This document shows, in pieces, positions 28,898-50,219 of a stretch of 64,000 nt of DNA. The DNA is taken from IMG/VR virus record IMGVR_UViG_3300042387_002461, positions 2,517 to 66,516 of that record, one strand, 5' to 3'. This DNA comes from a virus. How positions within the stretch are numbered: position 1 is the first letter of the stretch; every line of letters begins with the position of its first letter. Under the pieces are notes generated by a model. The model saw only the letters and a program-made list of their open reading frames with translations, had not been told where the DNA came from and did not search any database. The position numbers and the translations under genes are program-made.

Positions 28898-28961
28898 TAG
28901 AGGACAGCCAGTTTTAAAGTGTGCTGGTTTCTTTAAAGTTGGACCTTTAAAGATTACTCTA
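28898..28961 (-). ncRNA. three-way-junction leader motif upstream of tnpB
   Basis: TAGAG-TAA-[TCTTTAAAG GTCCAA CTTTAAAGA]-AA-[CCAG..CTGG]-CTGTC-CTCTA; same motif at 50145..50219. Confidence 0.65.
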
Positions 28962-29242
28962 TATTTTATTTAATCAAAATGATCAAATTTTCTTCTGTTT
29001 GCAGAAAATATTTTTGGGCTAAGATGTTGTTATGAAAGTTTACTAATATGAACTATTTTGCACTAAAAAATGTTAATGTATGTTATACTCTTTTAAGCTC
29101 ATTGCAAAGAGAGGACTATCAAACATAATGTCTATGAGATTTGGATCCTCGTTATTGAGAAGACTTTGCAACTCTTCTTCGTTTTTAACATCTGTGAGGT
29201 TAACAATGATTTCTCCTTCTTGGTCCAAAATTTTCATAAGTT

Positions 29243-29446
29243 TTAGATAATGTTGTTGCGGAGATAATTCAGTGCTTCTACATAAAGCACATTCATGCGA
29301 TCTTCATAGCAATCGTCAAATCCTTCGTCTTCTTCGTTCTTGTCACTCATGTCTGGAATGCAAATGTCTTCTTGAAGTGCTGGAAGGATTGTAGATTCAA
29401 GGAGATAATTGAGTTGATCAATTTGAGTTTGTGATAGTTTTGTCAT
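29243..29446 (-). CDS. hypothetical early cassette protein
   Basis: Own promoter. Confidence 0.7.
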   Translation of the reverse strand: MTKLSQTQIDQLNYLLESTILPALQEDICIPDMSDKNEEDEGFDDCYEDRMNVLYVEALNYLRNNII

Positions 29447-29478
29447 GGTTTTGATATTAGAGATTTGTTATGGACAGC

Positions 29479-29730
29479 TCAAGCTCTTTTGATAACTTGA
29501 AATTTGTCGAGTTCAATATAAACACGATACACTCGACCAGTCCTGTCTTGCACATCAAAGGTCTTGTTGCTCACTTTAACTACGACAGCCTGATGAGAAT
29601 AAGGAGGTACGATCTCGATTGTAGAATGAAATGCGGGAATGTTAGTAGGAGGATAGTAGAAGATTTCATCTCCTACAGACACAAGAAGTTTAGCTTTTGG
29701 CTCTTGATCAGATTCTTTGATTAGTTTCAT
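29479..29730 (-). CDS. hypothetical early cassette protein (SH3/KOW-like)
   Basis: VGDEIF...VVVKV...FDV; own promoter. Confidence 0.7.
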   Translation of the reverse strand: MKLIKESDQEPKAKLLVSVGDEIFYYPPTNIPAFHSTIEIVPPYSHQAVVVKVSNKTFDVQDRTGRVYRVYIELDKFQVIKRA

Positions 29731-29781
29731 AACGAGAATGATATTAGAGATTGTTTGTGGACAGGTCGAGAAAAAGTTCTC

Positions 29782-30105
29782 TCAATCGATACTAAATAAA
29801 CAAGCATAGTAATTTTTCTTTGCATTCATCCATGCTGGTTTAATCTTTGGAAATGTGAAGGTTCTGTAAGAATCATTAACAAAGTTTTTGCTTAACTTCA
29901 CACTCAAATACTCTTCGTACTCCTTAACTTCTTCAATCATACCGTTTTCCTCCCATTTAGCAATCTTATTTTTAACTCGCTCTAAAACTTTATCTTCTTC
30001 AATGTCAACATTACATTCATACGAACCTCTGCCTGAGTGAGTTGATTTTCCTTTTACGTTCAACTCTTTTCTCATCCAACTGACCGCACTTTGTAGTTTT
30101 TTCAT
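29782..30105 (-). CDS. hypothetical protein, paralog of C-terminal half of 33368..33952
   Basis: L..KG...H.GRG.Y...KI..W...YRT. Confidence 0.75.
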   Translation of the reverse strand: MKKLQSAVSWMRKELNVKGKSTHSGRGSYECNVDIEEDKVLERVKNKIAKWEENGMIEEVKEYEEYLSVKLSKNFVNDSYRTFTFPKIKPAWMNAKKNYYACLFSID

Positions 30106-30140
30106 AACAGGAATGATATTAGTGATTGTTTGTGGACAGA

Positions 30141-31061
30141 TCAATCAATTTTCTTATAAGTTGCTTCTGCTCCTCGGCCTTCTTTAGAAGCCTTGCCTTC
30201 TGTGACGAGCTGACGAAGGATTGTGTTCAGGTATGCTCCGTTCACTTCAGACTCTCGAACGATCTGAGCAACGGTCTTGGGCTCTGTGAGTAGTTCAAGG
30301 ACTTGGTCGGCTTTAGAGGCTTTTTTTGCGGCAGATTTACGATCCGGACTGTTATCAGCTGCTACTGCTTCGAATGTATATCCATTTGCTCCGAATGGGA
30401 AAGTAGTGTAAGAGCAAGCTCCGAAGCGATTTTTGTGTAAGATCAAATCTCGAAGATTGTGATCGTCCTCGTTTTTAATCAAAGTAGCGAAAATATCAAT
30501 GGAATGAATTATGCCTGTACCACCTTTAAAATTGCCTCCCTTAGTGAAGTGCATAATAATTAACATGCATACTTCACGCTCTTTAGCAAGGTTTACAAGA
30601 CGGCCAGTAATATATTCCTCCCTTTCTCGAGAGTTCATGTCCTTCTTCTTTGTAGAGATAGTTGGAAAAGAATCAATCACAATAAAATCCAAGCCCATCT
30701 CGATCACTGCTTCTTCAATATCTTCTACATATACAAGATTTGCAATAGGAACCGACAAAGCATTCAACCTCTTCGCAGCAAATGCCACTTGCTCAAGAGT
30801 CTCTTCTCCGGAGATGTATGCAGTCTTCTTTCCAGTCTCTTCGAGAGCTTGGAGCAGCTGCAAAGAAATAGAGCTCTTGCCAACGCCTGCTGGAGCCGCC
30901 AGGGTGATCACAGAACCCGGAAGAAAGCCTTCTTGGCCGAAGGCTTCGTCAAGATCAGGAATGCCGGTCTTGAACTTGCGGTTATAAATTTCTGGAACTC
31001 GGACTTCTCCAGCTCTCGTGAAGTTCTTGTTAACAGTATTTTTTGATTGGATTGCTTGCAT
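30141..31061 (-). CDS. RadA/Sms-like RecA-fold ATPase with C-terminal wHTH
   Basis: Walker A APAGVGKS, YISGEE, Walker B IVIDS, KNRFG; start corrected to 31061. Confidence 0.85.
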   Translation of the reverse strand: MQAIQSKNTVNKNFTRAGEVRVPEIYNRKFKTGIPDLDEAFGQEGFLPGSVITLAAPAGVGKSSISLQLLQALEETGKKTAYISGEETLEQVAFAAKRLNALSVPIANLVYVEDIEEAVIEMGLDFIVIDSFPTISTKKKDMNSREREEYITGRLVNLAKEREVCMLIIMHFTKGGNFKGGTGIIHSIDIFATLIKNEDDHNLRDLILHKNRFGACSYTTFPFGANGYTFEAVAADNSPDRKSAAKKASKADQVLELLTEPKTVAQIVRESEVNGAYLNTILRQLVTEGKASKEGRGAEATYKKID

Positions 31062-31162
31062 AATGGTTGAATCTTTAAATACTCTCAATGCTCTTGAAGG
31101 ACTCCTCAAGATTCTTTTTTTGAAAACTGCTCTCTGAATTGCTCTCAAAGACCGCAGGCATT

Positions 31163-31206
31163 CATAGCGATTCTTGGCGCTAGAATGCGTTTAAAATCGT
31201 TTTGTT
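31163..31206. repeat. 44-bp dispersed intergenic repeat, copy 4
   Basis: CATAGCGATTCTTGGCGCTAGAATGCGTTTAAAATCGTTTTGTT. Confidence 0.85.
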
Positions 31207-31231
31207 GAATTTTTGGAAGACTGCTCTGGAA

Positions 31232-31264
31232 AAAGGAAAGGACCTCCTTTTTAGAGGTCCTTTC
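31232..31264 (-). terminator. intrinsic terminator
   Basis: GAAAGGACCTC/GAGGTCCTTTC plus T tract. Confidence 0.75.
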
Positions 31265-31314
31265 GCAACAGTTGTTGGCTTCTATGACGAATTAAATGAC
31301 TTCAGCCGGCTTTG

Positions 31315-31614
31315 TTAATCTCGAATCACTCGTCCGTTGTTGCCGAGAAATATCAACGATTGCGGAGGAATGTCTCCAGGATCCTTCATGCCACCGAAGC
31401 GGACCAGGGCCCTTTTTAACTCCGTCCACAATTCTGGATTTTCGCCGTGTGTTCGAATCAATTCCACAATATCCTGACGTAACTTATGAGCCAACTCTTT
31501 TGGATGTTGCCCTGGAGGATGTGATGAGGGGTTCTCTTTTGGGAGCACATGAGCTTCTTCGAGTAATTGTGTATTGAGGACTTTGTCTACGAGTTGATCG
31601 AATTTACGTTTCAT
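31315..31614 (-). CDS. late protein with CTS-like N-terminus
   Basis: TAAATA; MKRKFDQLVDKVLNTQLLEEA. Confidence 0.7.
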   Translation of the reverse strand: MKRKFDQLVDKVLNTQLLEEAHVLPKENPSSHPPGQHPKELAHKLRQDIVELIRTHGENPELWTELKRALVRFGGMKDPGDIPPQSLIFLGNNGRVIRD

Positions 31615-31680
31615 ATTGTTTATTTAACTAAAATGATCTCAGAGTTTGTTTGCGGACACTTCAAGAAGATTTTTAATCTT

Positions 31681-31792
31681 TGGAAGGAGACTTTGGTTGG
31701 GATCGAACCAACGGCTTGTGCTTGTTCCCCAGCATTTGGTCCTTCACCTTGAGGGGGCTACTGCTCTGCCAACTGAGCTACAAAGTCTTCTC
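31681..31792 (-). tRNA. non-canonical tRNA-like element (no assignable anticodon)
   Basis: Acceptor GACTTTG/CAAAGTC, TA, D-arm GCTC-AGTTGGCA-GAGC, T-arm GTTGG-TTCGATC-CCAAC; 49-nt atypical anticodon/variable region; 3' TCCTTCCA. Confidence 0.7.
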
Positions 31793-31942
31793 GAATTTTT
31801 CTTTTGCTTCCTGACTGCTCTGCAAAACTTTTCCTACACACATTCGTTCATCTTCTGACAAAAAGTTCCACATGGACTGCTCTGTCAGAATCTTCACGAG
31901 ATCAAACAAATTTGTTTCGAGTTGTTCAATATAAGTGTTCAT
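31778..31942 (-). CDS. 54-aa protein whose last codons overlap the tRNA-like acceptor stem
   Basis: MNTYIEQLETNLFDL...EKFEKTL-TAG; ATGA-coupled upstream. Confidence 0.6.
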   Translation of the reverse strand: MNTYIEQLETNLFDLVKILTEQSMWNFLSEDERMCVGKVLQSSQEAKEKFEKTL

Positions 31943-31992
31943 CGTTTGACAATTAAGACGATTAGAATGAGGAGGAGAAGAATGTCAGTCAT
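31939..31992 (-). CDS. 17-aa hydrophobic micropeptide MTDILLLLILIVLIVKR
   Basis: Exactly fills gap; TAATATG upstream and ATGA downstream coupling. Confidence 0.5.
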   Translation of the reverse strand: MTDILLLLILIVLIVKR

Positions 31993-31993
31993 A

Positions 31994-32344
31994 TTAGAAA
32001 TTGATTTCGTTTTCTTTAACTCGATCGATAAAGCATTCTCCATCATAGACTTCTATAACAAGCTCTTCATTGTCTCCTTTGTTATCAAAGAAGTTTTCAA
32101 CAAAGTTAATTTCTTCAGAAGTCAAACAAAGATAAGTGTTTCCTTCTGCAAAGATTTTTGAATAATTTCCATTAACTGCATCTTGCACAAGAGTCTTTGA
32201 AGACTGGAGATGTTCAAGAATCTCATCCATCGAACTGTCTCTAAGAACGTCTTGAAACATATCTGAAGTGTTTTCTCGAATGTTCTTGTCAATTGAGTCT
32301 CGTTGGAGTTTCAAAGTATGGACTGATTTAGAAGTAATGTTCAT
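31994..32344 (-). CDS. hypothetical protein
   Basis: 116 aa ORF. Confidence 0.7.
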   Translation of the reverse strand: MNITSKSVHTLKLQRDSIDKNIRENTSDMFQDVLRDSSMDEILEHLQSSKTLVQDAVNGNYSKIFAEGNTYLCLTSEEINFVENFFDNKGDNEELVIEVYDGECFIDRVKENEINF

Positions 32345-32348
32345 AAGT

Positions 32349-32504
32349 TTAATTGTTTTGTTTGACCTCTACAGCAACTGTCATTTTTCCTTCTTGCAGC
32401 TCGAAAGCTTTTCCGAGATAATAATTCTTTGCTTCTTCCAGAGTTGCATTCATTGATGTGGTGACTGAATTTCCGTCTTTAAAACGAATAGTGAAGTTGT
32501 TCAT
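32349..32504 (-). CDS. hypothetical early cassette protein
   Basis: Start corrected; T.MN.TLEEA..YYLG. Confidence 0.7.
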   Translation of the reverse strand: MNNFTIRFKDGNSVTTSMNATLEEAKNYYLGKAFELQEGKMTVAVEVKQNN

Positions 32505-32546
32505 AACAGAAAAGATCTTAGAGATTGTTTGTGGACAGTTCAAGAA

Positions 32547-32864
32547 TTATTTTTGCAAACATGCTAAAATTCTTCCATAAAATGCATCAAATCCATCAAA
32601 GCTTTTAATCTTAAATTGGTCATTATCAAGTTGTTTGAGAACATTTTCTTCTAAACCAATCCTGATAACGTCTTCTATAGTAAGTCCTTCCTTTACTAAC
32701 TTTACAGTTACATGCTTGCATTGTTTCCATGTTTTGCAATCTTCCCAACTGAGCAAAATAGCAACTTTGCCTTGGTAATAACCTATGCAGAAGTCTCTAT
32801 AAACGTTTTTGACTACTTGGACTTCGTTGACTTTAACATTATAATAAGTGTGAGGTTTGTTCAT
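32547..32864 (-). CDS. hypothetical early cassette protein
   Basis: Own promoter. Confidence 0.7.
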   Translation of the reverse strand: MNKPHTYYNVKVNEVQVVKNVYRDFCIGYYQGKVAILLSWEDCKTWKQCKHVTVKLVKEGLTIEDVIRIGLEENVLKQLDNDQFKIKSFDGFDAFYGRILACLQK

Positions 32865-32904
32865 AACAAAAAAGATAATAGAGATTGTTCAGGGACACTA
32901 CAAC

Positions 32905-32942
32905 AAAAAAAGTCTCTGTAACCTTTTGGATTACAGAGACTC
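32905..32942 (-). terminator. intrinsic terminator
   Basis: AGTCTCTGTAA/TTACAGAGACT plus T tract. Confidence 0.8.
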
Positions 32943-32969
32943 TTATAACTCTTTCTAGCTTAAATTATT

Positions 32970-33332
32970 TCACAGTTTGTAAGCAATTTTTCTAATAGTT
33001 TCATTATTAGCAAATAAACGTACTACAGCTAAACTCATATCATACTCTACACCCCAAGTTCTCCAAACTCCTTTAAAACCAACCTTTTCCTTCAACTTAA
33101 GCAACTTACTTTCAACTTCATTAATATCTTCTTCTTCAGCATTACAATCTAACATATACTCTTTCAACTCTTTAAGCCCTTCTTCAAAAGTTACTTCTGC
33201 ACTAGTATCTTCATCTTCAACAAATTCAACAAACTCTGTAAGCCCTTGAGAATCATCAAGCACTTCTCCAGAATCTGCACTATAACCAACGCTTTTAATT
33301 ACTGTGATGTAGTTTTTAGTAGTAGTATTCAT
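32970..33332 (-). CDS. hypothetical acidic early cassette protein
   Basis: Start corrected. Confidence 0.75.
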   Translation of the reverse strand: MNTTTKNYITVIKSVGYSADSGEVLDDSQGLTEFVEFVEDEDTSAEVTFEEGLKELKEYMLDCNAEEEDINEVESKLLKLKEKVGFKGVWRTWGVEYDMSLAVVRLFANNETIRKIAYKL

Positions 33333-33367
33333 AACAGAAAAGATCTTAGAGATTGCTTGTGGACAGA

Positions 33368-33952
33368 TCAAACTTCTTTTTCAAGTTGTTTAACTAGTCT
33401 GAGAAATTCGTCTTCAGATATTCCGTACTTTGTTTCAGCATCCAATGGACTAGCACTAAATATAACGCCAAAACAATTATCTCGTTTACAAAATGCTGCA
33501 GTTCTGTAGTTCTCATCAAAGTATTCGTTTGTGAATACAATCTTTACGTCCTGCTTATTAAACTCAATATCTTCAATGAGTTTGAGTTCTTTCCATTCCT
33601 CGATCTTTTTATTTAAACGTTCTGAAACAACATCCCACTTTTCATTGAATCCTCCAATATAAGCTCCTCTGCCTGTATGTTCTGTAGATCCTTTAATTTT
33701 AAGTTGTTGTCTCAAGAAAGTATTCAAACTTCTTTTCTTCCAATATGCACAACCATGCCTTGAATCAAGATATAGATTAAGCTCTTGTTTTGTTTTAAAA
33801 TTCAAACCCATCAATTTTTCAGCTTGATCGATACAATCTCTCGTACTTGTTCCTTTTATTTTAAAAGCTATTTTAGTTAACCTTACTTTTTTATCATGCA
33901 GCCAAATTTCAAGTTCTGTTGGATTAGCAATTTGTTTTTTTGGTTTGTTCAT
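33368..33952 (-). CDS. hypothetical early cassette protein
   Basis: Start corrected to 33952. Confidence 0.75.
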   Translation of the reverse strand: MNKPKKQIANPTELEIWLHDKKVRLTKIAFKIKGTSTRDCIDQAEKLMGLNFKTKQELNLYLDSRHGCAYWKKRSLNTFLRQQLKIKGSTEHTGRGAYIGGFNEKWDVVSERLNKKIEEWKELKLIEDIEFNKQDVKIVFTNEYFDENYRTAAFCKRDNCFGVIFSASPLDAETKYGISEDEFLRLVKQLEKEV

Positions 33953-33992
33953 AACAGGACTGACTATCGACAAGCTGAGAGGACAAAGCAAC

Positions 33993-34021
33993 AAAAAAAG
34001 AGGTCCAAAGGACCTCTTTTT
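33993..34021. terminator. bidirectional intrinsic terminator
   Basis: AAAAAAAGAGGTCC AAA GGACCTCTTTTT. Confidence 0.75.
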
Positions 34022-34043
34022 GTTATTAAACTGTTTGAGTGTA

Positions 34044-34520
34044 TCAACCAACAATACCTAAACCAGCAAAACGAGCTGGAGAGTCACCAAAAAACGTAAA
34101 GACAGTTCCTTGACCAGAGTCTGGGTGATACTCTCGTTTCATATCTTGCAAGCTACGTTTTAGTTTATTTAAATCAAAATTACCCGCTTCCTTGCCTACT
34201 CTTGAATACTCTCTCAATTGTTGTTCTGCAAATTCTATAACTTGTTGTGCACCTGCATCGAAAGAGTCAGGAAACTCAACTGAATCCATATCTATGTCTT
34301 CTATATTCCTAAGAATTCTCACCGGTTTAATTATTCCTGTTCGATGCCCATTCACGTAACCACCATGCTCAAAATCATTGAAATCCCAAGCAACAGCATC
34401 CATGAATTCGCTTATATCTATGCCTACGTCAGGATGTTCTTTGTCAATTGAGACAAACGTTCTGCTGGGTTTGGCTTCGTTAAGAATTTTTGATACTAAT
34501 TTATTGAATTTTGTTTTCAT
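34044..34520 (-). CDS. late protein with CTS-like N-terminus
   Basis: GATAAATA; MKTKFNKLVSKILNE. Confidence 0.7.
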   Translation of the reverse strand: MKTKFNKLVSKILNEAKPSRTFVSIDKEHPDVGIDISEFMDAVAWDFNDFEHGGYVNGHRTGIIKPVRILRNIEDIDMDSVEFPDSFDAGAQQVIEFAEQQLREYSRVGKEAGNFDLNKLKRSLQDMKREYHPDSGQGTVFTFFGDSPARFAGLGIVG

Positions 34521-34604
34521 ACAATTTTATTTATCTATTTTTGTTTTTTTTTTGCGGAAATCTCTAATTTATTTAAAAAATATTAGAGATTGTTCAGGGA
34601 CAGT

Positions 34605-34811
34605 TCAAGAATTATCTTCTGGAACATAACTCATGAGTGCTTCTTCAAACCCTCCAAAGTTCTTGAACAAATTTATTAAGCTCTCTTCAATTGCTTCTCT
34701 GGTCACCTTGGACTCTTGCATCTGAAGGTTTGAAGAAACTATTTGCAAAAGATAGTCAGCACTTTCTCTGTCAAGCTTTTGAAAGGCTTCTAGAATTTCT
34801 TGGTTGGTCAT
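34605..34811 (-). CDS. hypothetical early cassette protein
   Basis: Own promoter; stop overlaps next -35. Confidence 0.7.
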   Translation of the reverse strand: MTNQEILEAFQKLDRESADYLLQIVSSNLQMQESKVTREAIEESLINLFKNFGGFEEALMSYVPEDNS

Positions 34812-34854
34812 CTTTTGAGAGTATTGAGGATTGAGAAGGACACTTCAAGAAAAA

Positions 34855-34935
34855 ACTCGAGCCTTGCTCCAACAAGAATTTATATCGACCAAAATATGAA
34901 AAGTATGTCGGAAAGCAAGGCTTGAGTGATAAGTA
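34855..34935 (+). promoter_or_regulatory. long hairpin abutting late promoter GATAAGTA of HNH gene
   Basis: ACTCGAGCCTTGCT/AGCAAGGCTTGAGT. Confidence 0.7.
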
Positions 34936-34949
34936 ATTATGACCAAATT

Positions 34950-35924: not shown

Positions 35925-35926
35925 AA

Positions 35927-36778: not shown

Positions 36779-36883
36779 AATTTTGATTTGTTAGTGTGTT
36801 TAACTTCAAATTTGATCTTAGACTCTTTTGAAAGGACAAGCAACGACATTTTGAACTCACTAAGGAAAATTATTCAAAAGAGA

Positions 36884-42602: not shown

Positions 42603-42629
42603 GAGAGAAACAAACATTAAATAATCTTC

Positions 42630-43310: not shown

Positions 43311-43322
43311 TAATTACTCTTC

Positions 43323-43931
43323 ATGAACAAAGATCAAAAGCTGTTAGAAGAAGCATACAATAAGATTTGCGAATCAACAAAAGATGATACTTTGCTTGCT
43401 TCAGAAGAAGAATTAATTCACTTAATAGCAGACTTGCTTATAGAGTCAATCGGAAGAGAAGAGCCTCGTTTGAGCAGAAGCAACGGAATCGTACCTCTTG
43501 ACCAACTTCTGTCTTCTTTCGATTTTTTCAAAGAACATCTGAATGAAAAATTTTTAAAAGCTATCAACTGTCCTCCGGGCTTACAAACAGCATGCGGAGA
43601 TATTTATTTAGAGTACGGTTATGGACCGTTTAGTGCTAATAGTCATTTTCATTTCTTTGGAGCTAACAAACGTTTTACTGACAAAAGTTTCTTAGAATTA
43701 ACTCTTCTGGACGGAAGTAAAGTCAAAGCAGACTATAAAGACAAACAAGCTATTCAAACAGTTCTACGGGATTACATTATTAGAGCAACTGATGAAAGTC
43801 TCAATAATAGTGCAAGAGTAAATCCTTACCATAAAAGATTTTTTGAATGGAGAAAGAAAAAGATGCAAGAGCTTCAAAGAGACAAGCAACTCTCTAAGGA
43901 TTTTGATATAAGTGCTCTCGAAGGCTTCTAA
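43323..43931 (+). CDS. MNKDQxLLEEAY-family protein with DFDISALEGF tail
   Basis: Shared termini. Confidence 0.85.
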   Translation: MNKDQKLLEEAYNKICESTKDDTLLASEEELIHLIADLLIESIGREEPRLSRSNGIVPLDQLLSSFDFFKEHLNEKFLKAINCPPGLQTACGDIYLEYGYGPFSANSHFHFFGANKRFTDKSFLELTLLDGSKVKADYKDKQAIQTVLRDYIIRATDESLNNSARVNPYHKRFFEWRKKKMQELQRDKQLSKDFDISALEGF

Positions 43932-44404
43932 CAACCAAATGCTTCACAAAGAACTTCTTCGATTGTCTTCTCTTTAACTTCTACTTGAGCTTTTTCTGAA
44001 TAGTAATCTCCATAAGGATCATCCATCAGAACATCTGAAGCAGTTTGTGTCACTTGAACTTTCTTTGAAGCACAAGCTTGCGGAACCAATCTCTTAACTT
44101 TTTCGAGTATGATGATCAGCAGTTGATGGAAGTGCAGTTGGTTTGTTGAGCCTTTGACAAACTCTAGAACGTCTTCCTTTGAGAATTTTCCTTTGAGCTC
44201 TGAGAAAGGATTTTCATAACTAGAAAAAACGAGAAGAGGAATATAAGAAACAGCAACTTGAGCAGAGTCTTTGATTACATGAGCAGCTGATGGATTGTTA
44301 ATTGTAATTCCGATGGAGGGATCTTCAGAAGCCTTCTTAGCTGCTTTGTAGAGCTTTGCTTGTTTCAGAGAACTATTTTCTAGTAAGACATCGATAAATT
44401 TCAT
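43928..44404 (-). CDS. hypothetical late protein
   Basis: MKFIDVLLEN; TAATTA upstream. Confidence 0.7.
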   Translation of the reverse strand: MKFIDVLLENSSLKQAKLYKAAKKASEDPSIGITINNPSAAHVIKDSAQVAVSYIPLLVFSSYENPFSELKGKFSKEDVLEFVKGSTNQLHFHQLLIIILEKVKRLVPQACASKKVQVTQTASDVLMDDPYGDYYSEKAQVEVKEKTIEEVLCEAFGC

Positions 44405-44425
44405 AGAGAGAGAATAATTAATAAA

Positions 44426-45013
44426 GTGTACAAGAATTTAAAAATATTGCTAGAGAATTATGGATCGAAAGAGCCAGCTTATTTTGGTCCTCTAGATAAG
44501 AAAGAAGCCTTTATGAATTGGCTTAAGAGATTAGATTATGAAGTGCATGAAGATGGTTCTGTGAGTGTTAAAGGAGATGTAGATTTTAGATATAACGAGC
44601 AGGGACAGTTTCGTGTATGTATATCTGACAACATAGAAAAGTATATCGTTTCTAGGCTTCCATTCAACTTTCGAAAGGTTACTGGTGACTTTATGTGTCC
44701 AAAGCAGATTACGACTTTAACGGGATCTCCGAGATACGTTGGCGGAACCTTTACATCTGGTCCTGATAATCAAAACATTTCTTCTTTAGAGGGAGCTCCG
44801 GATTATGTTGGAAAAGACTTTTGGTGCATGAGTGCTAAATTAACAACTCTAGAAGGAGCTCCGGAAGTTATTAAAGGATACTTTGGAACCAAATGGTTTT
44901 CAAAAGAAGATTATAGAGAGTATGCAGAAAAGGCAGCAAGAGAGAAAAGAATTCAAAAGAAACTAGATAAAGAACTAGATCCAGAGTTTGATGTAGATTT
45001 GAAAGACTTTTGA
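44426..45013 (+). CDS. SLEGAP-repeat (LRR-like solenoid) protein with EFDVDLKDF tail
   Basis: LxxLEGAPxxVGxxFxC repeats. Confidence 0.8.
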   Translation: MYKNLKILLENYGSKEPAYFGPLDKKEAFMNWLKRLDYEVHEDGSVSVKGDVDFRYNEQGQFRVCISDNIEKYIVSRLPFNFRKVTGDFMCPKQITTLTGSPRYVGGTFTSGPDNQNISSLEGAPDYVGKDFWCMSAKLTTLEGAPEVIKGYFGTKWFSKEDYREYAEKAAREKRIQKKLDKELDPEFDVDLKDF

Positions 45014-45024
45014 TAATTACTAGA

Positions 45025-45579
45025 ATGAATAAAGACCAAAGATTACTAGAAGAAGCTTATCAGAGTATTTGCGAGTCTTTAAAAGAGCCTCTTTATTTTG
45101 GTCCAAAGAAAGATAAAGAAGGATGGTTATTGTGGCTGAAGGATTATGTACATGAGGTGCATGAAGATGGCTCTGTGAGCATTGATGGAGACGTGAATTT
45201 TATGGTGAATACTTTATCAGTATTTCCTTTCAAGTTCAAAAAGGTTACTGGAGATTTTTCATGTTTTAATCTAAAGCTTACAACTTTGGAAGGAGCTCCA
45301 GAAGAAGTAGGAGGAGATTTTTTATGCTCTTATAATATGTTTAAAACTTTAAAAGGAGCTCCAGAAAAAGTTGGAGGATCTTTTTATTGCTTTCATAATT
45401 CTAAAAAGTTAATGATTGCTTCCTTAGAAGGAGCTCCGGCAGAAATTGGAGGAGAATTTGAGAGCAATAGGTTTACTGACGAGGATTACAGAAGGTACGC
45501 AAGAGAGAAAAAAATTAAAAAGAAGCTAGATAAAGAACTCGATAAAGATCTAAATGTAGACTTGGGAGATTTTTCTTAA
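45025..45579 (+). CDS. MNKDQ-family SLEGAP-repeat protein
   Basis: Start corrected; repeats and tail. Confidence 0.85.
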   Translation: MNKDQRLLEEAYQSICESLKEPLYFGPKKDKEGWLLWLKDYVHEVHEDGSVSIDGDVNFMVNTLSVFPFKFKKVTGDFSCFNLKLTTLEGAPEEVGGDFLCSYNMFKTLKGAPEKVGGSFYCFHNSKKLMIASLEGAPAEIGGEFESNRFTDEDYRRYAREKKIKKKLDKELDKDLNVDLGDFS

Positions 45580-45899
45580 AATATTTTTGTATCCAAACGA
45601 AAAAAGTCAACCGTTTGAGATAAATAAAATAAGAAGACTCGAAAGAGGATTTAAAAAAGTAGTTATCTAGGATACACATAAAGCCCATGAGGTAGTGATT
45701 AATGCCACAGCACTGACGAAACTTTAAAGACTCCGGAATCTTCTAAAGACATAAGAAGAATTTAAAGACTTAAAAATCTTTGGGCGCTTCTAAAATATAA
45801 AAGAATCAGAAACTTCATTATCGCGGCCACAGTTCAAAGAAAGTTTGATGTCTGGGACAATACTACCCGCCAAACACTACAACCTCGAATTGGGAAGAG

Positions 45900-47000
45900 A
45901 GAAAGATTCTAAGAGGAATAAAGAAGAAGATTATATAAAAATTTATAGAGAGAAAAAGATTGAGCATTAAGATCCCTCAGAATGCTTTTGAAACTTCGCG
46001 TGTCTTTAAAAAAGGATATAAGAAGTTTTGAAATATTTTGCGGGCAATAGAAGCAGAACATAATCTACATAGAGAGAAAGAAGCTAATAGAAAAGATAGT
46101 AACATTCTTCAGAAGACAGAGAGAAACATTATAAAAAGCCCTAGAGAGAATTTTAAATATTTGGAACCTTTGTGTCTTTATAGAGGGAGAGAGAAGAGAT
46201 CTACATAGAGAAGAGAGAGGAGACTTTTCCTGAGGGACTGTTAATTACTTGCATGGAACTTAATCAAACCAACTTAGAATATGCAGTGACTACTATTACT
46301 TTGAAGAAAGCTTTGGAGTTCTGCAAGAGGTACTTTGGAAGGATTGAATGGAACTTTTTGCAAGAGCTAGGCTTCGGAGATCTGCAGAGAGAGCAGGTTA
46401 TGAGCATTTATTCAAAGATTGCAAATCTTGATGGGCGCTGAGAGAGGGAGAGATTCAAGTGTTTCAGGAACTGAAGAAGTTTTGAAGGGAGAGAGGGAGA
46501 GAAGATTTTGAAAAGATTTTGGAAAATTTTTCGAGGGCCTCTGAGGGCCTTATAAGGATTTTTTAAAAAGTTTTGTAAGAAATGTTTAGAAAAGCTAACT
46601 GTTTTTCAAAAGATCTCTAAAAATCTTTCAAAATTCCTCCAAAATCTTCCGAAAATTCTCTAAAAAGTTCTCTTAAAATATACTTTTCACTATTTTGGAC
46701 ACTCTCTATTTTTAAAAAACCTCTGTATTTTCTAAGTTTCCTTCTTAATTTTCACTGCGGGAAACGCGCTAAAAATACTTCAAAAATATTCCAAACATTT
46801 CCCCGCAGGGAATTAATTTCTTTAGATCTCTTTAGACTCTTGCACAAAGGCTCCATAAAGCTTTTTCTGAATTATTTCTTCTCTCTCCGGAGTTTCTTTA
46901 TAGTATTTTTAAGCTTCTCTCCCGTACCAAAAGTGCTATTTTAATGCAATAAAAATACTCTCCAGAAATTACTAATAAAAACTCTCTTATTCACATTTCT
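45900..47000. other. candidate replication origin / large non-coding control region
   Basis: Mostly non-coding; GAGAGA motifs flip to TCTCTC across ~46600; imperfect inverted repeats 46501-46530 vs 46620-46660. Confidence 0.45.
46253..46441 (+). CDS. hypothetical protein
   Basis: TAATTACTTGCATG start context. Confidence 0.55.
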   Translation: MELNQTNLEYAVTTITLKKALEFCKRYFGRIEWNFLQELGFGDLQREQVMSIYSKIANLDGR

Positions 47001-47014
47001 GATTAAATAAGATA

Positions 47015-47566
47015 ATGAAGTTTAGCAATTTTGTGCAAGACAAACAAATTTTAAGATATCTCAAAGAAAGTCCGGATGTAGTTAATGACAAGTATCACAG
47101 AAGAAATTATAACTTTGATTTATTCTTAGGAGATTCAGAAGGAATTATTATTGTTCCAAAGAAAGACTTTGAATTTGATACTCATGCAGATATCATTCGT
47201 TATTTCTTTGAAACGGGACTAGCAGATAAAAAAACTAAAAAATTAAAAATGTTTCAAGGTTTAAGAAAACTTAAAAATCTTCTAACTGCTAATTATTTGA
47301 AGATGAAAGTAATCGGCAGTCCTAAATCTATATCTCTAGCTTATATGGGAATTATTCTACCAAAACAAAATGGAAAGCGGGTAGCAGAAGGAAAAAAACC
47401 TTATAAAGATGTGGACGGAACTTATATTTCATTCTGGGATAAAAAAGGAAGCACGGAAGGAATTTCTTGTCAGCTCTTAAAGGATTATTGCAAAAAGCAT
47501 TATTCTGCTCCTTACTTTTTAGAAGTAATGGAAAGCGAATTTACTTCGACTGTATCAAGCTTTTAA
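47015..47566 (+). CDS. late protein with CTS-like N-terminus
   Basis: TAAATA; MKFSNFV...YLKESPD. Confidence 0.75.
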   Translation: MKFSNFVQDKQILRYLKESPDVVNDKYHRRNYNFDLFLGDSEGIIIVPKKDFEFDTHADIIRYFFETGLADKKTKKLKMFQGLRKLKNLLTANYLKMKVIGSPKSISLAYMGIILPKQNGKRVAEGKKPYKDVDGTYISFWDKKGSTEGISCQLLKDYCKKHYSAPYFLEVMESEFTSTVSSF

Positions 47567-47753
47567 GCTCATCATTTCTGATCTTCAAAAGCTTTCAGAG
47601 TACATACACATAAACAAATCAGTCCAATTGCTAAAAGATATTCTGGAAGTAAACAAAGGCTGAAGAGGGACAAGGCAATTCCAAAACAATAAGTGACTTT
47701 CATAATTTCAATTTAAGGGCTTTTAATGGACAAGGCAAGAGATAATTACTATA

Positions 47754-48374
47754 GTGAACAAAGATCAGAGACTACTTGAAGAGGCTTATCATTTAATTAC
47801 TGAGCGGTCTCTTTCTCTTCCAATTATCATTATTGATGTTCAGCCTGCTTATGATAAGTTCTGTTCTTCTATTATGGCTGATCTTGCTTCCTTTCTGAAC
47901 TCTGCGAAGGGTTCGATTACTTGTTTCTTTAATGGTCCAGATGTTGGTGTAGAAGATTCTATTCAATCTGTTGCTTATTATTATTCAGAGCACGGAGTGA
48001 ATGAAGAAGTTATCGAAAGGATTGACTTTAAGGAAAAATCTTATGCATTCTTCCGGAATTGGATGGATGCTGGAATGGATCGAAAGCATTTGATTAAAGC
48101 AATTCGTTTTATGGTTATGGAAAGAATTGTTGATAGTCGAGATGTCTCTTCTGATCAATGGAAAGAACTGTTTGGAGAAGACTATGAAGAGCTCTCTTCT
48201 GTTATTGAGTCTGAAGATAACATTAATCTTCCTGATATTTCTTTGAGTGCTTTAAAGTCTCTTGGCGGCTGTTATCTTTGCGGAGGAGCCAAGGACGAAT
48301 GTTTATCAGAATTTCGTTTTCTTCTTGAGTCTTTTAATATTCCTTATAAACTTGTTAGTAGTCTAATTTATTAA
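47754..48374 (+). CDS. MNKDQ-family protein with isochorismatase-like (cysteine hydrolase) fold
   Basis: IIIIDVQP...K.Y.F...LCGGAKDECL. Confidence 0.65.
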   Translation: MNKDQRLLEEAYHLITERSLSLPIIIIDVQPAYDKFCSSIMADLASFLNSAKGSITCFFNGPDVGVEDSIQSVAYYYSEHGVNEEVIERIDFKEKSYAFFRNWMDAGMDRKHLIKAIRFMVMERIVDSRDVSSDQWKELFGEDYEELSSVIESEDNINLPDISLSALKSLGGCYLCGGAKDECLSEFRFLLESFNIPYKLVSSLIY

Positions 48375-48382
48375 GTATGCTT

Positions 48383-48913
48383 ATGAACAAAGATCAGGTA
48401 TTACTTGAAGAAGCATATAAGGCTATTTATGAAAGTGCTTCGGAGCCTTTATATATTGGCAAACCAAACAGAAAGAAATATTTTTTAGATTGGTTGAGCG
48501 TCCGTGATTATGAAGTTCTTGCTGATGGTTCTCTAAAAGTTGAAGGCAACATTTTGTTTAACCATCTTAATCTTACAAAAATTCCTTTTAAATTTGATCA
48601 AGTGAATGGTTATTTCATGTGCACCCACAACAAGCTTTCTTCTCTCGAAGGTTCTCCTCGAATTGTCAATGGATCTTTTTTTTGCGATGACAACAAGCTT
48701 TCTTCTCTGCAAGGAGCTCCAAAAATCGTCGAAGGAAATTTTGTTTGCACAAGCAATCCTCTTCAATCATTAGAAGGAGCTCCGGAGATTATTAAAGGAG
48801 AGTTTCGAAGTGATCAGTTCTCTGATAAGGATTATAGAGACTTTATCAAGCACGAAAAGTATGTTAAGGGAAAGCTCGAGAAGGACTTTGATATCGATCT
48901 GCAGGATTTTTGA
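48383..48913 (+). CDS. MNKDQ-family SLEGAP-repeat protein
   Basis: Repeats; DFDIDLQDF tail. Confidence 0.85.
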   Translation: MNKDQVLLEEAYKAIYESASEPLYIGKPNRKKYFLDWLSVRDYEVLADGSLKVEGNILFNHLNLTKIPFKFDQVNGYFMCTHNKLSSLEGSPRIVNGSFFCDDNKLSSLQGAPKIVEGNFVCTSNPLQSLEGAPEIIKGEFRSDQFSDKDYRDFIKHEKYVKGKLEKDFDIDLQDF

Positions 48914-48914
48914 T

Positions 48915-49430
48915 ATGAATAAGGATCAGAAATTACTTGAAGAAGCTTATGAATCAATCTATAATGATTCTCTAACTTCTTTTGAAGAATCTCTCGTTAA
49001 GAAAGCTGCTCAGGATATAACTGCTCTTTATTTTCGCACCAAGCGAGATGTTAAGAAGATGCTTGTTCTTTTCAAAGACTTGCTTGATTTGAAAGAAGCA
49101 ACTGAAATTCTCAATTCTTCTGATGACATTAAAGATTTTCTTTATAAGAAATTTCAGAACTCTCTTTGGGACATAGCTTTCAATAAAGGCACATTTGCAT
49201 ACCGAGCATCATCAAGAACCGGAACGCTCACAGGCACAGAAGACAATCTTGAAGAATTTCTTTATAAAGTCTTTTCTGATGCCATTCTTGGATTTTTTGC
49301 TGTTATGAAAAAAGTTGATAGCGGAATTCATCCAAAAATTCTTGATTATATTAAAAATACACGAGAAATGCAGAAAAAAGTTGATAAGGAACTGGATAAA
49401 GACTTTGACATCGATTTGGAGGATTTTTAA
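48915..49430 (+). CDS. MNKDQ-family protein with unrelated helical core
   Basis: Start corrected; DFDIDLEDF tail. Confidence 0.85.
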   Translation: MNKDQKLLEEAYESIYNDSLTSFEESLVKKAAQDITALYFRTKRDVKKMLVLFKDLLDLKEATEILNSSDDIKDFLYKKFQNSLWDIAFNKGTFAYRASSRTGTLTGTEDNLEEFLYKVFSDAILGFFAVMKKVDSGIHPKILDYIKNTREMQKKVDKELDKDFDIDLEDF

Positions 49431-49431
49431 T

Positions 49432-50088
49432 ATGAACAAAGATCAAAAATTACTCGAAGAAGCTTATAGTTCAGTTTGTGAAGGAGCAAGAGCTCCTTTT
49501 TATTCTAAGACTCCTCAAAAAGAACCTTTGTATTTTGGTAAATTGGAACACAAAGGCTACTGGCGGAATTATCTCGGATTGTTTCACCCCGAAATAACAG
49601 AAGATGGATCAGTTCGCATCAAAGGAGACTTTAGTTATTATGGAGGCAACTCTGAAGAAATTTCTGCAAATATGGATCGTTTGCCATATAATTTTGAATC
49701 AGTCGACGGAGACTTTTCGATAAGCAACTGTATCAATCTCGGATCTCTGGAAGGCTCTCCCAAGTTTGTTCCAGGTTCATTTGTTTGTGATGCTTGTGAC
49801 TTGAAGACTCTCAAAGGTGCTCCAAGAAAAGTTGGCAAGTATTTTCAGTGCGATACTAATCAACTAACAAGCTTGGAAGGAGCTCCAGAGCATGTTGGAA
49901 CAAATTTTTGGGCCAATGAAAATCCAATTACTTCTCTTAAAGGAGCTCCAGAATTCATTGGAGGGAAGTTTGCTTCTGATAAGTTTTCTCATCAAGATTA
50001 TGAGAAGTTCAAGAGAGATCGCAGGGTTCAAAAGAAAGTTGAAAAAGAACTTGATAAAGATTTTGATATTGATTTGGAAGATTTTTAA
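49432..50088 (+). CDS. MNKDQ-family SLEGAP-repeat protein
   Basis: Start corrected; repeats; DFDIDLEDF tail. Confidence 0.85.
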   Translation: MNKDQKLLEEAYSSVCEGARAPFYSKTPQKEPLYFGKLEHKGYWRNYLGLFHPEITEDGSVRIKGDFSYYGGNSEEISANMDRLPYNFESVDGDFSISNCINLGSLEGSPKFVPGSFVCDACDLKTLKGAPRKVGKYFQCDTNQLTSLEGAPEHVGTNFWANENPITSLKGAPEFIGGKFASDKFSHQDYEKFKRDRRVQKKVEKELDKDFDIDLEDF

Positions 50089-50144
50089 GTCTTTTTTTGA
50101 GTCTTTTGACGAAAAAATTTGACGGGATTTGATAAGTAATTAAA

Positions 50145-50219
50145 GGAAACAAGAGTTAGAGCAGACGTTCCAAGGCGTCTCTCAACCGTGAATAACAAAG
50201 CGGCTGTCCTCTTGCTTCT
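50145..50219 (+). ncRNA. three-way-junction leader motif upstream of HNH gene
   Basis: CAAGAG-TTA-[GAGCAGACGT TCCAAG GCGTCTCTC]-AA-[CCGT..GCGG]-CTGTC-CTCTTG after GATAAGTA. Confidence 0.65.

What the first reader, a model, noticed from the sequence alone, without database searches (positions are those of the whole stretch)
28898..50219. New-looking three-way-junction RNA motif shared by the leaders of TnpB and an unrelated HNH endonuclease
Seen: both leaders start just after a late promoter and read P1(AGAG)-UWA-P2(loop containing UCCAA)-AA-P3(CC..GG)-CUGUC-P1'(CUCU). tnpB (28961..28898, minus): P2 TCTTTAAAG/CTTTAAAGA, P3 CCAG/CTGG. HNH (50145..50219, plus): P2 GAG-AGACGT/GCGTCT-CTC, P3 CCGT/GCGG. 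Stems differ in sequence while junctions and the P2 loop are conserved, the hallmark of a functional RNA. These are also among the few late genes here with long leaders. CUGUCC matches the early promoter box. Inference: a cis-regulatory switch, ribozyme or scaffold dedicated to selfish nucleases.
Basis: partly seen in the sequence, partly recalled or inferred. Interest (0 to 1): 0.8.

Follow-up and report, generated by a model that had tools for sequence, protein, structure and literature searches.

The report
Shared structured leader of phage nuclease genes
A small Y-shaped RNA fold sits in front of at least five unrelated kinds of selfish DNA-cutting genes in one group of uncultured lake phages, and one of its arms carries a copy of the start signal of the gene behind it, which suggests a new way of controlling such genes.

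Summary
Both window copies (28899-28960 minus; 50150-50214 plus) fold as the three-way junction (3WJ) described. Pattern scans plus a covariance model found 16 more copies in freshwater viral and metagenome contigs (18 distinct). On that alignment 12 of 19 pairs show compensatory changes. No Rfam family matches.

In 16 of 18 copies the downstream ORF is a selfish nuclease: two TnpB types, SegE-like GIY-YIG, DUF7487, or an HNH-like protein. One copy is cut by a contig end and one precedes a truncated HNH relative.

The motif follows the phage lineage, not the proteins. None of 80 loci encoding relatives of the HNH-like protein has it. Nearly identical leaders precede TnpBs that are only 23% identical.

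New here: the P3 hairpin is a near-copy (7-14 nt) of the translation-initiation region (TIR) of its own downstream ORF, usually with CUG, GUG or UUG locked in the stem. The two copies change in parallel. The reading frame from that pseudo-start stays open to the real start in 15 of 16 leaders.

Corrections: the UCCAA loop is not conserved. CTGTCC is indeed the lineage's early-promoter box.

Best reading: a portable cis-acting leader that controls translation of nuclease mRNAs. The mechanism is inferred. Transcription, start site and strand are not shown.

The parts
28966..28978 (-). late-type promoter motif TTTGATTAAATAA, ending 5 nt before the AGAG core of P1
   Evidence: The same motif class stands 5-10 nt before many late-block start codons. 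Promoter function is inferred.
28896..28963 (-). three-way junction, tnpB copy. P1 28957-28960 with 28899-28902. J1/2 28954-28956. P2 28945-28953 with 28930-28938. J2/3 28928-28929. P3 28924-28927 with 28908-28911. J3/1 CTGTC 28903-28907.
   Evidence: Fold. Model hit of 74.5 bits. Covariation.
28912..28922 (-). X1: ACACTTTAAAA in the P3 loop, a copy of the start region, followed by CUGG (pseudo-start CUG in the P3 3' strand)
   Evidence: This 11-mer occurs only twice in 64 kb.
28875..28885 (-). X2: ACACTTTAAAA, the real start region. Its last A is the A of the tnpB ATG (28873-28875).
27661..28875 (-). tnpB ORF, 404 aa
   Evidence: Pfam Cas12f1-like_TNB 2.3e-13; OrfB_IS605 3.2e-5, below its cut-off.
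50128..50139 (+). late-type promoter motif TTTGATAAGTAA
   Evidence: Promoter function is inferred.
50149..50215 (+). three-way junction, HNH-like copy. P1 50150-50155 with 50209-50214. J1/2 50156-50158. P2 50159-50169 with 50174-50183 (C50162 bulged). J2/3 50184-50185. P3 50186-50189 with 50200-50203. J3/1 CTGTC 50204-50208.
   Evidence: Fold. Model hit of 67.9 bits.
50189..50198 (+). X1: TGAATAACAA in P3. With G50188 it reads GUG AAU AAC AAA, against the ORF's AUG AAU AAC AAU.
   Evidence: 0 of 2000 shuffles reach the observed match.
50232..50241 (+). X2: TGAATAACAA at the real start (ATG at 50231)
50231..50962 (+). 243-aa HNH-like ORF with KxYxxxN repeats and a C-terminal HVDHIIP..N..N motif
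   Evidence: PHROG 1035 'endonuclease VII' 2.9e-8. No Pfam or PDB hit. The motif was read by eye.

Best explanation
It is a portable, structured 5' leader for selfish nuclease genes in one lineage of large freshwater phages.

Anatomy (shown):
- A late-type promoter motif is followed at once by a three-way junction of about 65 nt.
- P1 closes the 5' end.
- P2 is a 9-10-bp hairpin with a conserved base.
- P3 is a replica of the downstream gene's own translation-initiation region. Its upstream box or Shine-Dalgarno sequence sits in the loop. A near-cognate start (CUG, GUG or UUG) is usually locked in the stem.

How I think it works (inferred): the leader acts in cis on translation of the late nuclease mRNA.
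- When the junction is folded, the upstream replica start is masked.
- When P3 opens, ribosomes load there and read through the 3' strand of P1 and the AU-rich spacer to the real start.
- There they either continue in frame or stop in an AUGA-type overlap, so nuclease synthesis is gated and coupled.

Shown here: the structure, its covariation, the exclusive link with nuclease genes, its portability, the replica and the open frame. Inferred: transcription from the upstream motif, the RNA strand, and every step of the translational mechanism.
For: Structure:
- 18 distinct copies.
- 93.9% of cells are paired against 79.3% in shuffles (0 of 500 reach it).
- 12 of 19 pairs have changes on both sides. 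Slid controls give 39-56% paired.

Link to nucleases:
- TnpB of about 400 aa: 4 copies.
- TnpB-like of 536-540 aa: 3 copies.
- SegE_GIY-YIG: 5 copies, plus 1 cut by a contig end.
- DUF7487: 3 copies.
- HNH-like: 1 copy, plus 1 truncated relative.

Portability:
- Leaders of the two TnpB types have 80% mean column identity from promoter to ATG. The proteins share 23% identity over 250 aa.
- 0 of 80 loci with relatives of the HNH-like protein carry the motif.

Replica:
- Each P3 against its own start region scores 9.24 on average (minimum 7, n=17). Cross-family pairs score 4.90 (sd 0.91, maximum 8, n=220).
- All 17 beat composition-matched shuffles, at 0-106 of 2000.
- The shared word occurs only twice per locus, 36-52 nt apart.
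- Within the TnpB leaders both copies carry the same variants: ACACTT, GACTT, CAATCT, CACACT.

Open frame:
- The frame set by the pseudo-start has no stop before the real ATG in 15 of 16 leaders.
- 8 are in frame with the ORF. 5 stop 4-8 nt past the A of the ATG.
- The fixed GCU-GUC-CUC frame is open in 13 of 16. The other two frames are open in 8 and 6 of 16.

Parallel case: three other endonuclease genes in the window have a long hairpin upstream of their late promoter. Its loop holds a 10-18-nt copy of their own start, ATG included, and opens a 9-11-codon upstream ORF.

Precedent: T4-family homing endonuclease genes are controlled by late promoters combined with RNA structures and by coupling (passages of PMC2988022 and PMC3014915).
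Against: - No expression data cover the leader. The RNA contigs that I laid cover only the 3' part of tnpB.
- The transcription start is inferred from a motif.
- Almost all pairs are Watson-Crick: 319 Watson-Crick, 2 G-U, 10 A-C at stem ends and misaligned rows. So the strand, and RNA against single-stranded DNA, are not settled by the pairs.
- 17 of 18 copies were found with patterns that demanded AGAGTWA, AACC and GGCTGTCC, so junction invariance is partly circular. The one copy found by the model alone (L214 2852-2925) reads CTGTCCCCTCT.
- Coupling does not explain why the replica must match the real start base for base.
- Exceptions: the pseudo-start frame of L214b closes 18 nt before the ATG. 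In L057 and L214a it ends 58 and 26 nt inside the ORF. The P3 of L214b matches the start region of L057 (score 13) better than its own (score 9). In the window HNH copy and in L066 the 3' strand of P3 is GCGG or UAGG, which is no start.
- CUG is a poor start codon.
- The copies are not independent. There are about 10 lineages.
- The full junction is the minimum-energy fold in only 8 of 16 leaders once 60 nt of ORF are added (P1 core kept in 11 of 16).
Confidence: 0.45

Rival explanations
1. The element is mainly a DNA-level promoter composite. The 3' half (GG-CTGTCC-TCT plus the AU-rich TTATTATAC or ATATATTTAC box) is a weak early- or middle-type promoter that uses the lineage's CTGTCC box. 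The two repeats flank a promoter, as they do in the window's hairpin-type endonuclease genes. The fold then acts only on read-through RNA, or is secondary.
For: - CTGTCC is the box of about 30 early promoters in the window.
- TTGANCTGTCC occurs 17 and 10 times in the two larger motif-bearing phage records. The reversed control pattern occurs 1 and 0 times.
- In the window HNH copy, CTGTCC-N7-TCTCAAAATT-aatt-ATG resembles the early consensus CTGTCC-N8-TCTCTAAGAT (read by eye).
- In the three hairpin-type genes the repeats do flank the late promoter, and the downstream copy begins 4-5 nt after the promoter hexamer.
- A semi-conserved AU-rich box follows P1 (listing).
Against: - The TTGA of the early promoters is absent. 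That position is NNGG, which is fixed by pairing in P3.
- The simple sigma-70 scan finds no promoter over the 3' half of either window copy.
- The distance from CTGTCC to the best TAnnnT varies from 9 to 15 nt, against a fixed 12 in the early promoters (read by eye).
- Covariation in P1, P2 and P3 needs a single-stranded nucleic acid.
Confidence: 0.2
2. It is a recombination module like the promoter-stem-loop cassettes (PeSLs) of T4-like phages. It would be a shared piece of homology that lets nuclease cassettes swap places. It would be conserved because it spreads, and the repeats would be scars of such joins.
For: - The same leader stands before unrelated genes.
- In L096 the leader keeps a TnpB-type start (ATGATC, now a 36-aa ORF), but a DUF7487 gene follows.
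- The P3 of L214b fits the start region of another cassette better than its own.
- PeSLs are described as points of exchange between unrelated sequences (abstract of PMC4122927).
Against: - Homology alone does not need compensatory changes in three stems.
- Scars would decay independently, yet the two repeats change in parallel.
- A join inside the conserved scaffold would bring in the donor's replica, yet 16 of 17 leaders match their own start best or equal best.
Confidence: 0.12
3. It is only a 5' stabiliser. A stem that closes the 5' end would protect the late nuclease mRNA from 5'-end-dependent decay, with no specific recognition.
For: P1 begins within a few nucleotides of the inferred start of transcription. 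The structure is stable for its composition.
Against: A stabiliser needs neither fixed junction bases, nor a semi-conserved P2 loop, nor a replica of the start region that co-varies with it.
Confidence: 0.08
4. It is a ligand-binding riboswitch or a small self-cleaving ribozyme.
For: It is a compact three-way junction with conserved junction bases and variable stems.
Against: - No riboswitch or ribozyme model of Rfam 15 matches at E<=10 in either 161-nt stretch.
- No terminator-like site follows.
- The real start codon pairs with a junction segment in 0 of 16 extended folds.
- The junction strands (3, 2 and 5 nt) do not fit the hammerhead core. That core is recalled, not tested beyond Rfam.
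Confidence: 0.06
5. The two repeats are operators for the encoded nuclease, which would repress its own gene as I-TevI does.
For: - The repeats differ between modules and are identical within one. That is what binding by the gene's own sequence-specific protein would give.
- I-TevI represses its late promoter through an operator that resembles its homing site (passages of PMC2988022).
Against: - TnpB finds DNA through a guide RNA, and no third copy or complement of the repeat lies in the elements.
- TnpB proteins that are 82% identical have different repeats.
- The TnpB-type leader, repeats included, also serves a 23%-identical TnpB and a DUF7487 gene.
Confidence: 0.05

Closest known systems
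Late-promoter plus RNA-hairpin control of homing endonuclease genes in T4-type phages (I-TevI, I-TevII, I-TevIII, segB, Aeh1 mobE)
   Same: A selfish nuclease gene has its own late promoter joined to a leader structure that limits translation. Coupling through overlapping stop and start codons is also described there (passages of PMC2988022 and PMC3014915).
   Different: In T4 a single hairpin hides the real ribosome-binding site, and the late promoter lies inside it, so late RNA escapes. Here a three-way junction lies downstream of the promoter motif. It leaves the real start free and locks a replica of it instead. The same module serves five nuclease families.
PeSL promoter-terminator cassettes of T4-like phages
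   Same: Short conserved regulatory modules between variable genes that serve as points of exchange (abstract of PMC4122927).
   Different: PeSLs join a terminator stem-loop to an early promoter and flank many kinds of genes. This module joins a late-type motif to a covarying three-way junction and is found only before nuclease genes.
Leader ORFs and translational coupling in bacterial and phage operons
   Same: An upstream start whose frame runs to, or overlaps, the main start (AUGA type).
   Different: Here the upstream start region is a base-for-base replica of the main one. It usually has a near-cognate start codon held in a stem of a conserved scaffold. I know of no described case. Searches found none.
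Leader hairpin that shows the transcription-regulating sequence of nidoviruses (recalled, not looked up)
   Same: A 5' leader hairpin displays in its loop a short sequence identical to one that stands just before a downstream gene.
   Different: That system depends on template switching by an RNA-dependent RNA polymerase of an RNA virus. Nothing of the kind is known for DNA phages. This is an analogy of layout only.
RNAs linked to TnpB and IscB (omega RNA, HEARO, the IS605-orfB motifs of Rfam; names recalled)
   Same: Structured RNA beside tnpB.
   Different: Those lie at or beyond the 3' end of the gene, or guide the nuclease. This one is 5', is shared with protein-only nucleases, and matches no Rfam model.

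Membership tests
T4-type RBS-sequestering hairpin of homing endonuclease genes | The structure pairs with the real Shine-Dalgarno sequence or start codon | tested here: not met
   The start codon pairs with a junction segment in 0 of 16 extended folds. In 5 of 16 it pairs weakly with the AU-rich spacer.
T4-type RBS-sequestering hairpin of homing endonuclease genes | The late promoter lies inside the structure, so that late RNA lacks its 5' arm | tested here: not met
   The promoter motif ends 5-12 nt upstream of the AGAG core of P1. The transcription start itself is not mapped.
Any Rfam 15 family (including hammerhead, twister, pistol, hatchet, riboswitches, HEARO, IS605-orfB motifs) | Score at or above the family's gathering threshold | tested here: not met
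   Nothing at either site at gathering level. The best hits at E<=10 are unrelated sRNA, snoRNA and miRNA models of 10.8-19.5 bits against thresholds of 39-208 bits.
PeSL cassette | Terminator stem-loop followed by an early promoter, between variable genes of any kind | tested here: not met
   No terminator-like site. The promoter motif is of the late type and precedes the structure. Only nuclease genes follow.
Left-end hairpin of IS200/IS605 elements | Subterminal hairpin near the element end, specific to elements moved by TnpA | tested here: not met
The same structure precedes GIY-YIG, DUF7487 and HNH-like genes.
Riboswitch | Aptamer joined to an expression platform (terminator, or start site hidden in an alternative fold) | tested here: not met
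   No terminator. No pairing of the junction with the start. Ligand binding is not testable here.
Leader ORF with translational coupling | An upstream start with an open frame that reaches or overlaps the main start | tested here: inconclusive
   The frame is open in 15 of 16 leaders. 8 are in frame and 5 stop 4-8 nt past the ATG. But the starts are CUG, GUG or UUG inside a stem, and translation is not shown.

The most novel reading that the evidence does not exclude
The junction is a portable scaffold whose job is to display a replica of the downstream start region, and it works through identity as such. One possibility is a switch of template or of ribosome between the two copies, laid out like the leader and body signals of nidoviruses. 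Another is a programmed loss of the 36-52-nt segment between them. This would be a way of controlling selfish genes that has not been described in DNA phages. The shared CTGTCC would tie it to the factor that reads the lineage's early promoters.
Probability: 0.12. Interest if true: 0.9.

Novelty: new variant of a known kind. Interest (0 to 1): 0.72.

Why it matters
Homing endonucleases and TnpB are selfish genes that a phage must keep on a short leash. In T4 each gene has its own hairpin for this. Here one structured module serves five unrelated nuclease families, and it has been passed between genes whose proteins are barely related. That points to a shared control point for selfish nucleases in this phage lineage.

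The replica of the start region, which changes together with the real one, is a form of covariation (identity, not complementarity) that standard RNA-motif methods do not look for. The mechanism behind it is open.

If it holds up, it gives a new RNA family and a testable model for how TnpB and homing endonuclease expression is timed. It would also offer a compact regulatory part for a group of phages whose mRNAs seem to have almost no leaders.

Tried and rejected
Expression. I looked for RNA runs and laid four metatranscriptome contig sets on window 27600-29200. Contigs of relatives (under 90% to 95% alike) cover 27642-28077, 28556-28683 and 28819-28851 only. Nothing covers the leader and there are no joints. 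Contigs cannot show starts, so this says nothing about the leader.

Partner sequence. I searched for a sequence complementary to the repeat. There is no exact reverse complement in 9 loci. A duplex scan of five TnpB elements gave no common position; the best single hit was -13.7 kcal/mol at -208 in L036 only.

Deleted form. A TnpB leader lacking the segment between the repeats has 0 matches in viral contigs. Few TnpB copies of this type are in that collection, so this is weak.

Strand. Counting G-U against A-C pairs gave 2 against 10, mostly at stem ends and in one misaligned row. This is uninformative.

Wider membership:
- The looser viral pattern AAAGAAACC..GGCTGTCCYCT returned the four known viral loci plus two (L223, L224) that the models do not accept.
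- The genome-contig scan gave 105 pattern matches. I scored 98 of them with R1 and left L323-L329 unscored. The best score was 30.4 bits, against at least 48.8 bits for the copies I counted as members.
- A second model built from 18 copies found nothing new in 98 sources.
- L196 and L200 (32-33 bits) were left out of all counts as doubtful.

Isolated phages. There is no DNA match to the region. There is no match to a 622-aa structural-block protein. TnpB relatives reach only 26-35% identity.

Synteny. G004 and G005 are too distant (30-34% identity for one protein, no match for the other), so I could not set the borders of the HNH cassette.

Embedded sigma-70 promoter in the 3' half: not found by the simple scan.

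Literature. Three full-text searches found no description of such a motif. Most subscription papers are not in that library. I did not ask for supplements.

Full report
WHAT IS THERE

The window is 64,000 of the 66,516 bases of an IMG/VR virus record that CheckV rates 37% complete.

On the strand of the gene that follows, both read P1 (AGAG) - UWA - P2 - AA - P3 (CC..GG) - CUGUC - P1' (CUCU). RNAfold returns this three-way junction as the minimum-energy and centroid fold for both. Energies are -15.3 and -23.4 kcal/mol, z -2.82 and -2.95, with 1 and 2 of 200 shuffles folding as well. The composite sequence pattern occurs twice in the window and in none of 100 shuffles. The 3' 11-mer alone would not be significant.

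One gene is a TnpB (Pfam Cas12f1-like_TNB 2.3e-13). The other is a 243-aa protein without Pfam or PDB match. It hits PHROG 1035 'endonuclease VII' at 2.9e-8 and ends in an HVDHIIP...N...N motif that I read by eye as an HNH finger. The Pfam HNH hit found nearby belongs to the next ORF (51168-51503).

THE PHAGE'S SIGNALS

CTGTCC occurs 42 times against 16.3 expected (0 of 100 shuffles). About 30 of these occurrences are part of TTGAsCTGTCC-N12-TAAkAT, which stands 7-10 nt before the ATG of small minus-strand genes.

ORFs of the other block are preceded by TTTG-N-(G)ATAAATAA, GATAAGTAA or TTAATTAC, 5-10 nt before the start codon. If these are promoters, as their layout suggests, most mRNAs of this phage have almost no leader. 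The late-type motif ends 5 nt (tnpB) and 12 nt (HNH-like) before the AGAG core of P1.

RELATIVES

A pattern scan of viral contigs gave 101 stretches, about what chance predicts for that pattern by my own rough estimate. Folding them showed 5 with the same junction.

A covariance model (R1) then found the following.
- It scored the 7 training copies at 64-84 bits.
- It found nothing above 19.9 bits in the single TnpB-relative locus or in the 80 loci that encode relatives (35-59% identity) of the HNH-like protein.
- It found one copy per record in the five viral records, one of which is a complete 217-kb genome.

A stricter pattern scan of metagenome contigs gave 30 stretches. R1 accepted 14 hits at 48.8-78.1 bits. 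Three of these repeat known ones. One hit (L214 2852-2925) was not matched by the pattern. That makes 18 distinct copies.

Bacterial and archaeal genomes gave only chance-level pattern matches. The best of the 98 scored reached 30.4 bits. A second model built from all 18 copies found nothing new. The runs that hold the tnpB region are lake and freshwater metagenomes.

STRUCTURE

On the 18-row alignment 93.9% of cells form standard pairs, against 79.3% after shuffling partners (0 of 500 shuffles reach it). Twelve of 19 pairs show changes on both sides. Sliding the partners by 1-3 columns drops pairing to 39-56%. The alignment was fitted to the model, which favours the structure somewhat.

- P1 is extended by covarying pairs: UA, GC and AU at one position; AU, CG and UA at the next.
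- P2 varies in its outer half.
- P3 varies beyond its CC/GG base.

Two cautions apply.
- 17 of 18 copies were found with patterns that demanded AGAGTWA, AACC and GGCTGTCC. The constancy of those bases is therefore partly built in. The one copy found without the pattern reads CTGTCCCCTCT.
- Nearly all pairs are Watson-Crick (319, with 2 G-U). So the pairs do not tell which strand folds, or whether RNA or single-stranded DNA folds. The sense strand is assigned from the promoter motif and the gene behind.

Only the second loop base, U, is constant.

No Rfam family matches at gathering level or at E<=10.

WHAT FOLLOWS THE MOTIF

- TnpB of 401-404 aa: window, L191, L192, L201. L192 is 82% identical to the window protein. 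L191 and L201 are cut but share the N-terminus.
- TnpB-like proteins of 536-540 aa: L036 (Pfam 1.2e-10), L086, L202.
- SegE-type GIY-YIG proteins: L057, L198b, L214a and L199 by Pfam (E from 2e-4 to 3e-6, two of them just below the cut-off). L214b is assigned by likeness.
- L198a: the contig ends 11 nt into the ORF.
- DUF7487 proteins with weak TnsA_N and DUF559 likeness: L096, L203, L197/L218 (E from 1e-15 to 4e-41).
- The HNH-like protein of the window.
- L066: a 167-aa relative (34% identity) that stops before the catalytic motif.

So 16 of 18 copies precede a recognisable nuclease gene, and none precedes anything else.

THE MODULE IS PORTABLE

The leaders of the two TnpB types have 80% mean column identity from the promoter motif to the ATG. 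Their proteins share 23% identity over 250 residues.

In L096 the same leader, with a TnpB-type start (ATGATC), now opens a 36-aa ORF. That ORF overlaps the start of a DUF7487 gene.

The phages themselves are distant. One protein of the window's late-gene block (182 aa, function not assigned) is 30-34% identical between the window and two other motif-bearing records. Those two records also use the TTGANCTGTCC box, 17 and 10 times, against 1 and 0 for the reversed control.

THE NEW POINT: P3 IS A REPLICA OF THE GENE'S OWN START REGION

In every leader the P3 loop, with part of a stem strand, repeats 7-14 nt of the region around the real start codon.

| Leader | In P3 | At the real start |
|---|---|---|
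| window tnpB | ACACTTTAAAA | the same 11-mer ends in the A of the ATG |
| L197 | GGAATGTGAA | the same, directly before the ATG |
| L199 | TAAGGAATTA | the same |
| L057 | AAGGAAATC | the same |
| window HNH-like | GTGAATAACAAA | ATGAATAACAAT |
| L066 | CTGAACAAC | ATGAACAAC |

Statistics:
- Own pairs score 9.24 on average (minimum 7, n=17). Cross-family pairs score 4.90 (sd 0.91, maximum 8, n=220).
- Against 2000 shuffles of each P3 interior, the observed match is reached 0 to 106 times.
- The shared word occurs just twice in each locus, 36-52 nt apart. No reverse complement is present.
- Within the homologous TnpB leaders both copies carry the same variant: ACACTT, GACTT, CAATCT or CACACT. 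So the two copies evolve together.

In most leaders the place of the ATG is taken by CUG, GUG or UUG, which forms the 3' strand of P3 (NNGG). In the two HNH-type leaders the pseudo-start lies in the 5' strand.

One exception: the P3 of L214b fits the start region of L057 (score 13) better than its own (score 9).

THE FRAME FROM THE PSEUDO-START

Read from the pseudo-start, the frame has no stop before the real ATG in 15 of 16 leaders. Eight are in frame with the ORF. Five stop 4-8 nt past the A of the ATG (AUGA-type overlap). Two run on for 26 and 58 nt. One closes 18 nt early. The fixed GCU-GUC-CUC frame is open in 13 of 16. The other two frames are open in 8 and 6 of 16. The leaders fall into about ten lineages, so this is suggestive, not proof.

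When 60 nt of ORF are added, the start codon never pairs with a junction segment (0 of 16). In 5 of 16 it pairs with the AU-rich spacer. The P1 core is kept in 11 of 16 and the full junction in 8 of 16 by a strict count.

A PARALLEL IN THE SAME WINDOW

Three other endonuclease genes (starts near 23448, 34938 and 62375) have a long hairpin whose 3' arm runs into their late promoter motif.

I find that each hairpin loop holds a 10-18-nt copy of that gene's own start, ATG included: TGCTTAATATGAA; GACCAAA(A/T)TATGAAAAGT; TGCAATGACAAAC. Each copy opens a 9-11-codon ORF that ends in the 3' arm or the promoter (the ORFs were read by eye). There the two copies flank the promoter, and the downstream copy begins 4-5 nt after the promoter hexamer.

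So 'a copy of the start region held in an upstream structure' is a general habit of nuclease genes in this phage, in two different structural settings.

WHAT IT MOST LIKELY DOES

I commit to a cis-acting leader that controls translation of the late nuclease mRNA. The junction masks an upstream replica start. Ribosomes that enter there read through the 3' strand of P1 to the real start and feed or couple into it.

This fits four observations:
- the open frame;
- the AUGA overlaps;
- the ATG-bearing copies of the hairpin class;
- what is known for T4-type phages, where late promoters, RNA structures and coupling restrain homing endonuclease genes (passages of PMC2988022 and PMC3014915).

It does not explain why the replica must match base for base. 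I leave that as the main open point. It is also the reason for the bolder reading given in the section on the most novel reading.

The rivals are a DNA-level promoter composite built on the CTGTCC box, a recombination module of the PeSL type (abstract of PMC4122927), a plain 5' stabiliser, a riboswitch or ribozyme, and autorepression by the nuclease. They are weighed in their own sections.

COMPARISON AND NOVELTY

The nearest known things are the RBS-hiding hairpins of T4-family endonuclease genes. This element shares their purpose and the late promoter. It fails both defining features that I could test: it does not hide the real start, and the promoter motif lies outside the structure.

It matches no curated RNA family. 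Three full-text searches found no description of it. I rate it a new variant of a known kind (leader RNA control of selfish nuclease genes), with an unusual identity-type covariation that deserves an experiment.

LIMITS

There are no expression data for the leader. Transcription starts are inferred. Membership was ascertained largely by pattern. All copies come from uncultured freshwater phages.

Noticed in passing
window 23367-23447, 34850-34937, 62294-62374 (+): Three further endonuclease genes have a long hairpin fused to their late promoter motif. Each hairpin loop holds a 10-18-nt copy of the gene's own start, ATG included, which opens a 9-11-codon upstream ORF. On the opposite strand the hairpin is followed by a T run and would look like a terminator.
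   Followed up: partly
window, whole; for example 47001-47017 (+) and 716-725 (-): Start codons lie 5-10 nt after the late-type motif and 7-10 nt after the TAAkAT of the CTGTCC promoters. Most mRNAs of this phage would therefore be leaderless or nearly so.
   Followed up: partly
window 51148-51180 (+): The small HNH gene (51168-51503; Pfam HNH 6.9e-7) is preceded by a local hairpin (CTTTAAAACG.../...GATTTTAAAG) that pairs with its start codon. This is the classical T4-type arrangement.
   Followed up: no
window 27642-28077 (-): Metatranscriptome contigs of relatives (90-95% alike, depth up to about 60) cover the 3' part of tnpB. Two of them stop matching at 27642, next to the proposed right end of the element. 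An abundant omega RNA would give this picture, but contigs cannot prove it.
   Followed up: no
L096 13082-13192 (-), in the 217-kb record G005: The leader keeps a TnpB-type start that now opens a 36-aa ORF overlapping the start of a DUF7487 nuclease gene. The gene upstream (13318-13767) also carries a YFVDFY...IEIKP motif, which looks like a PD-(D/E)XK nuclease.
   Followed up: partly
L198 and L214 (metagenome contigs): Two junction-led GIY-YIG cassettes lie within 2-6 kb of each other and share at least 60 nt of upstream sequence. They are paralogous cassettes in one genome.
   Followed up: no
window 15334-15576 (-) and 31688-31787 (-): There is a group I intron (Rfam 66 bits) and a tRNA-like hit with a 40-nt insert in the anticodon region.
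   Followed up: no
window 28326-28393 (+): A weak antisense match to the junction model (14.6 bits, E 1.9) lies inside tnpB and contains CTGTCCTCT. It is probably chance.
   Followed up: no
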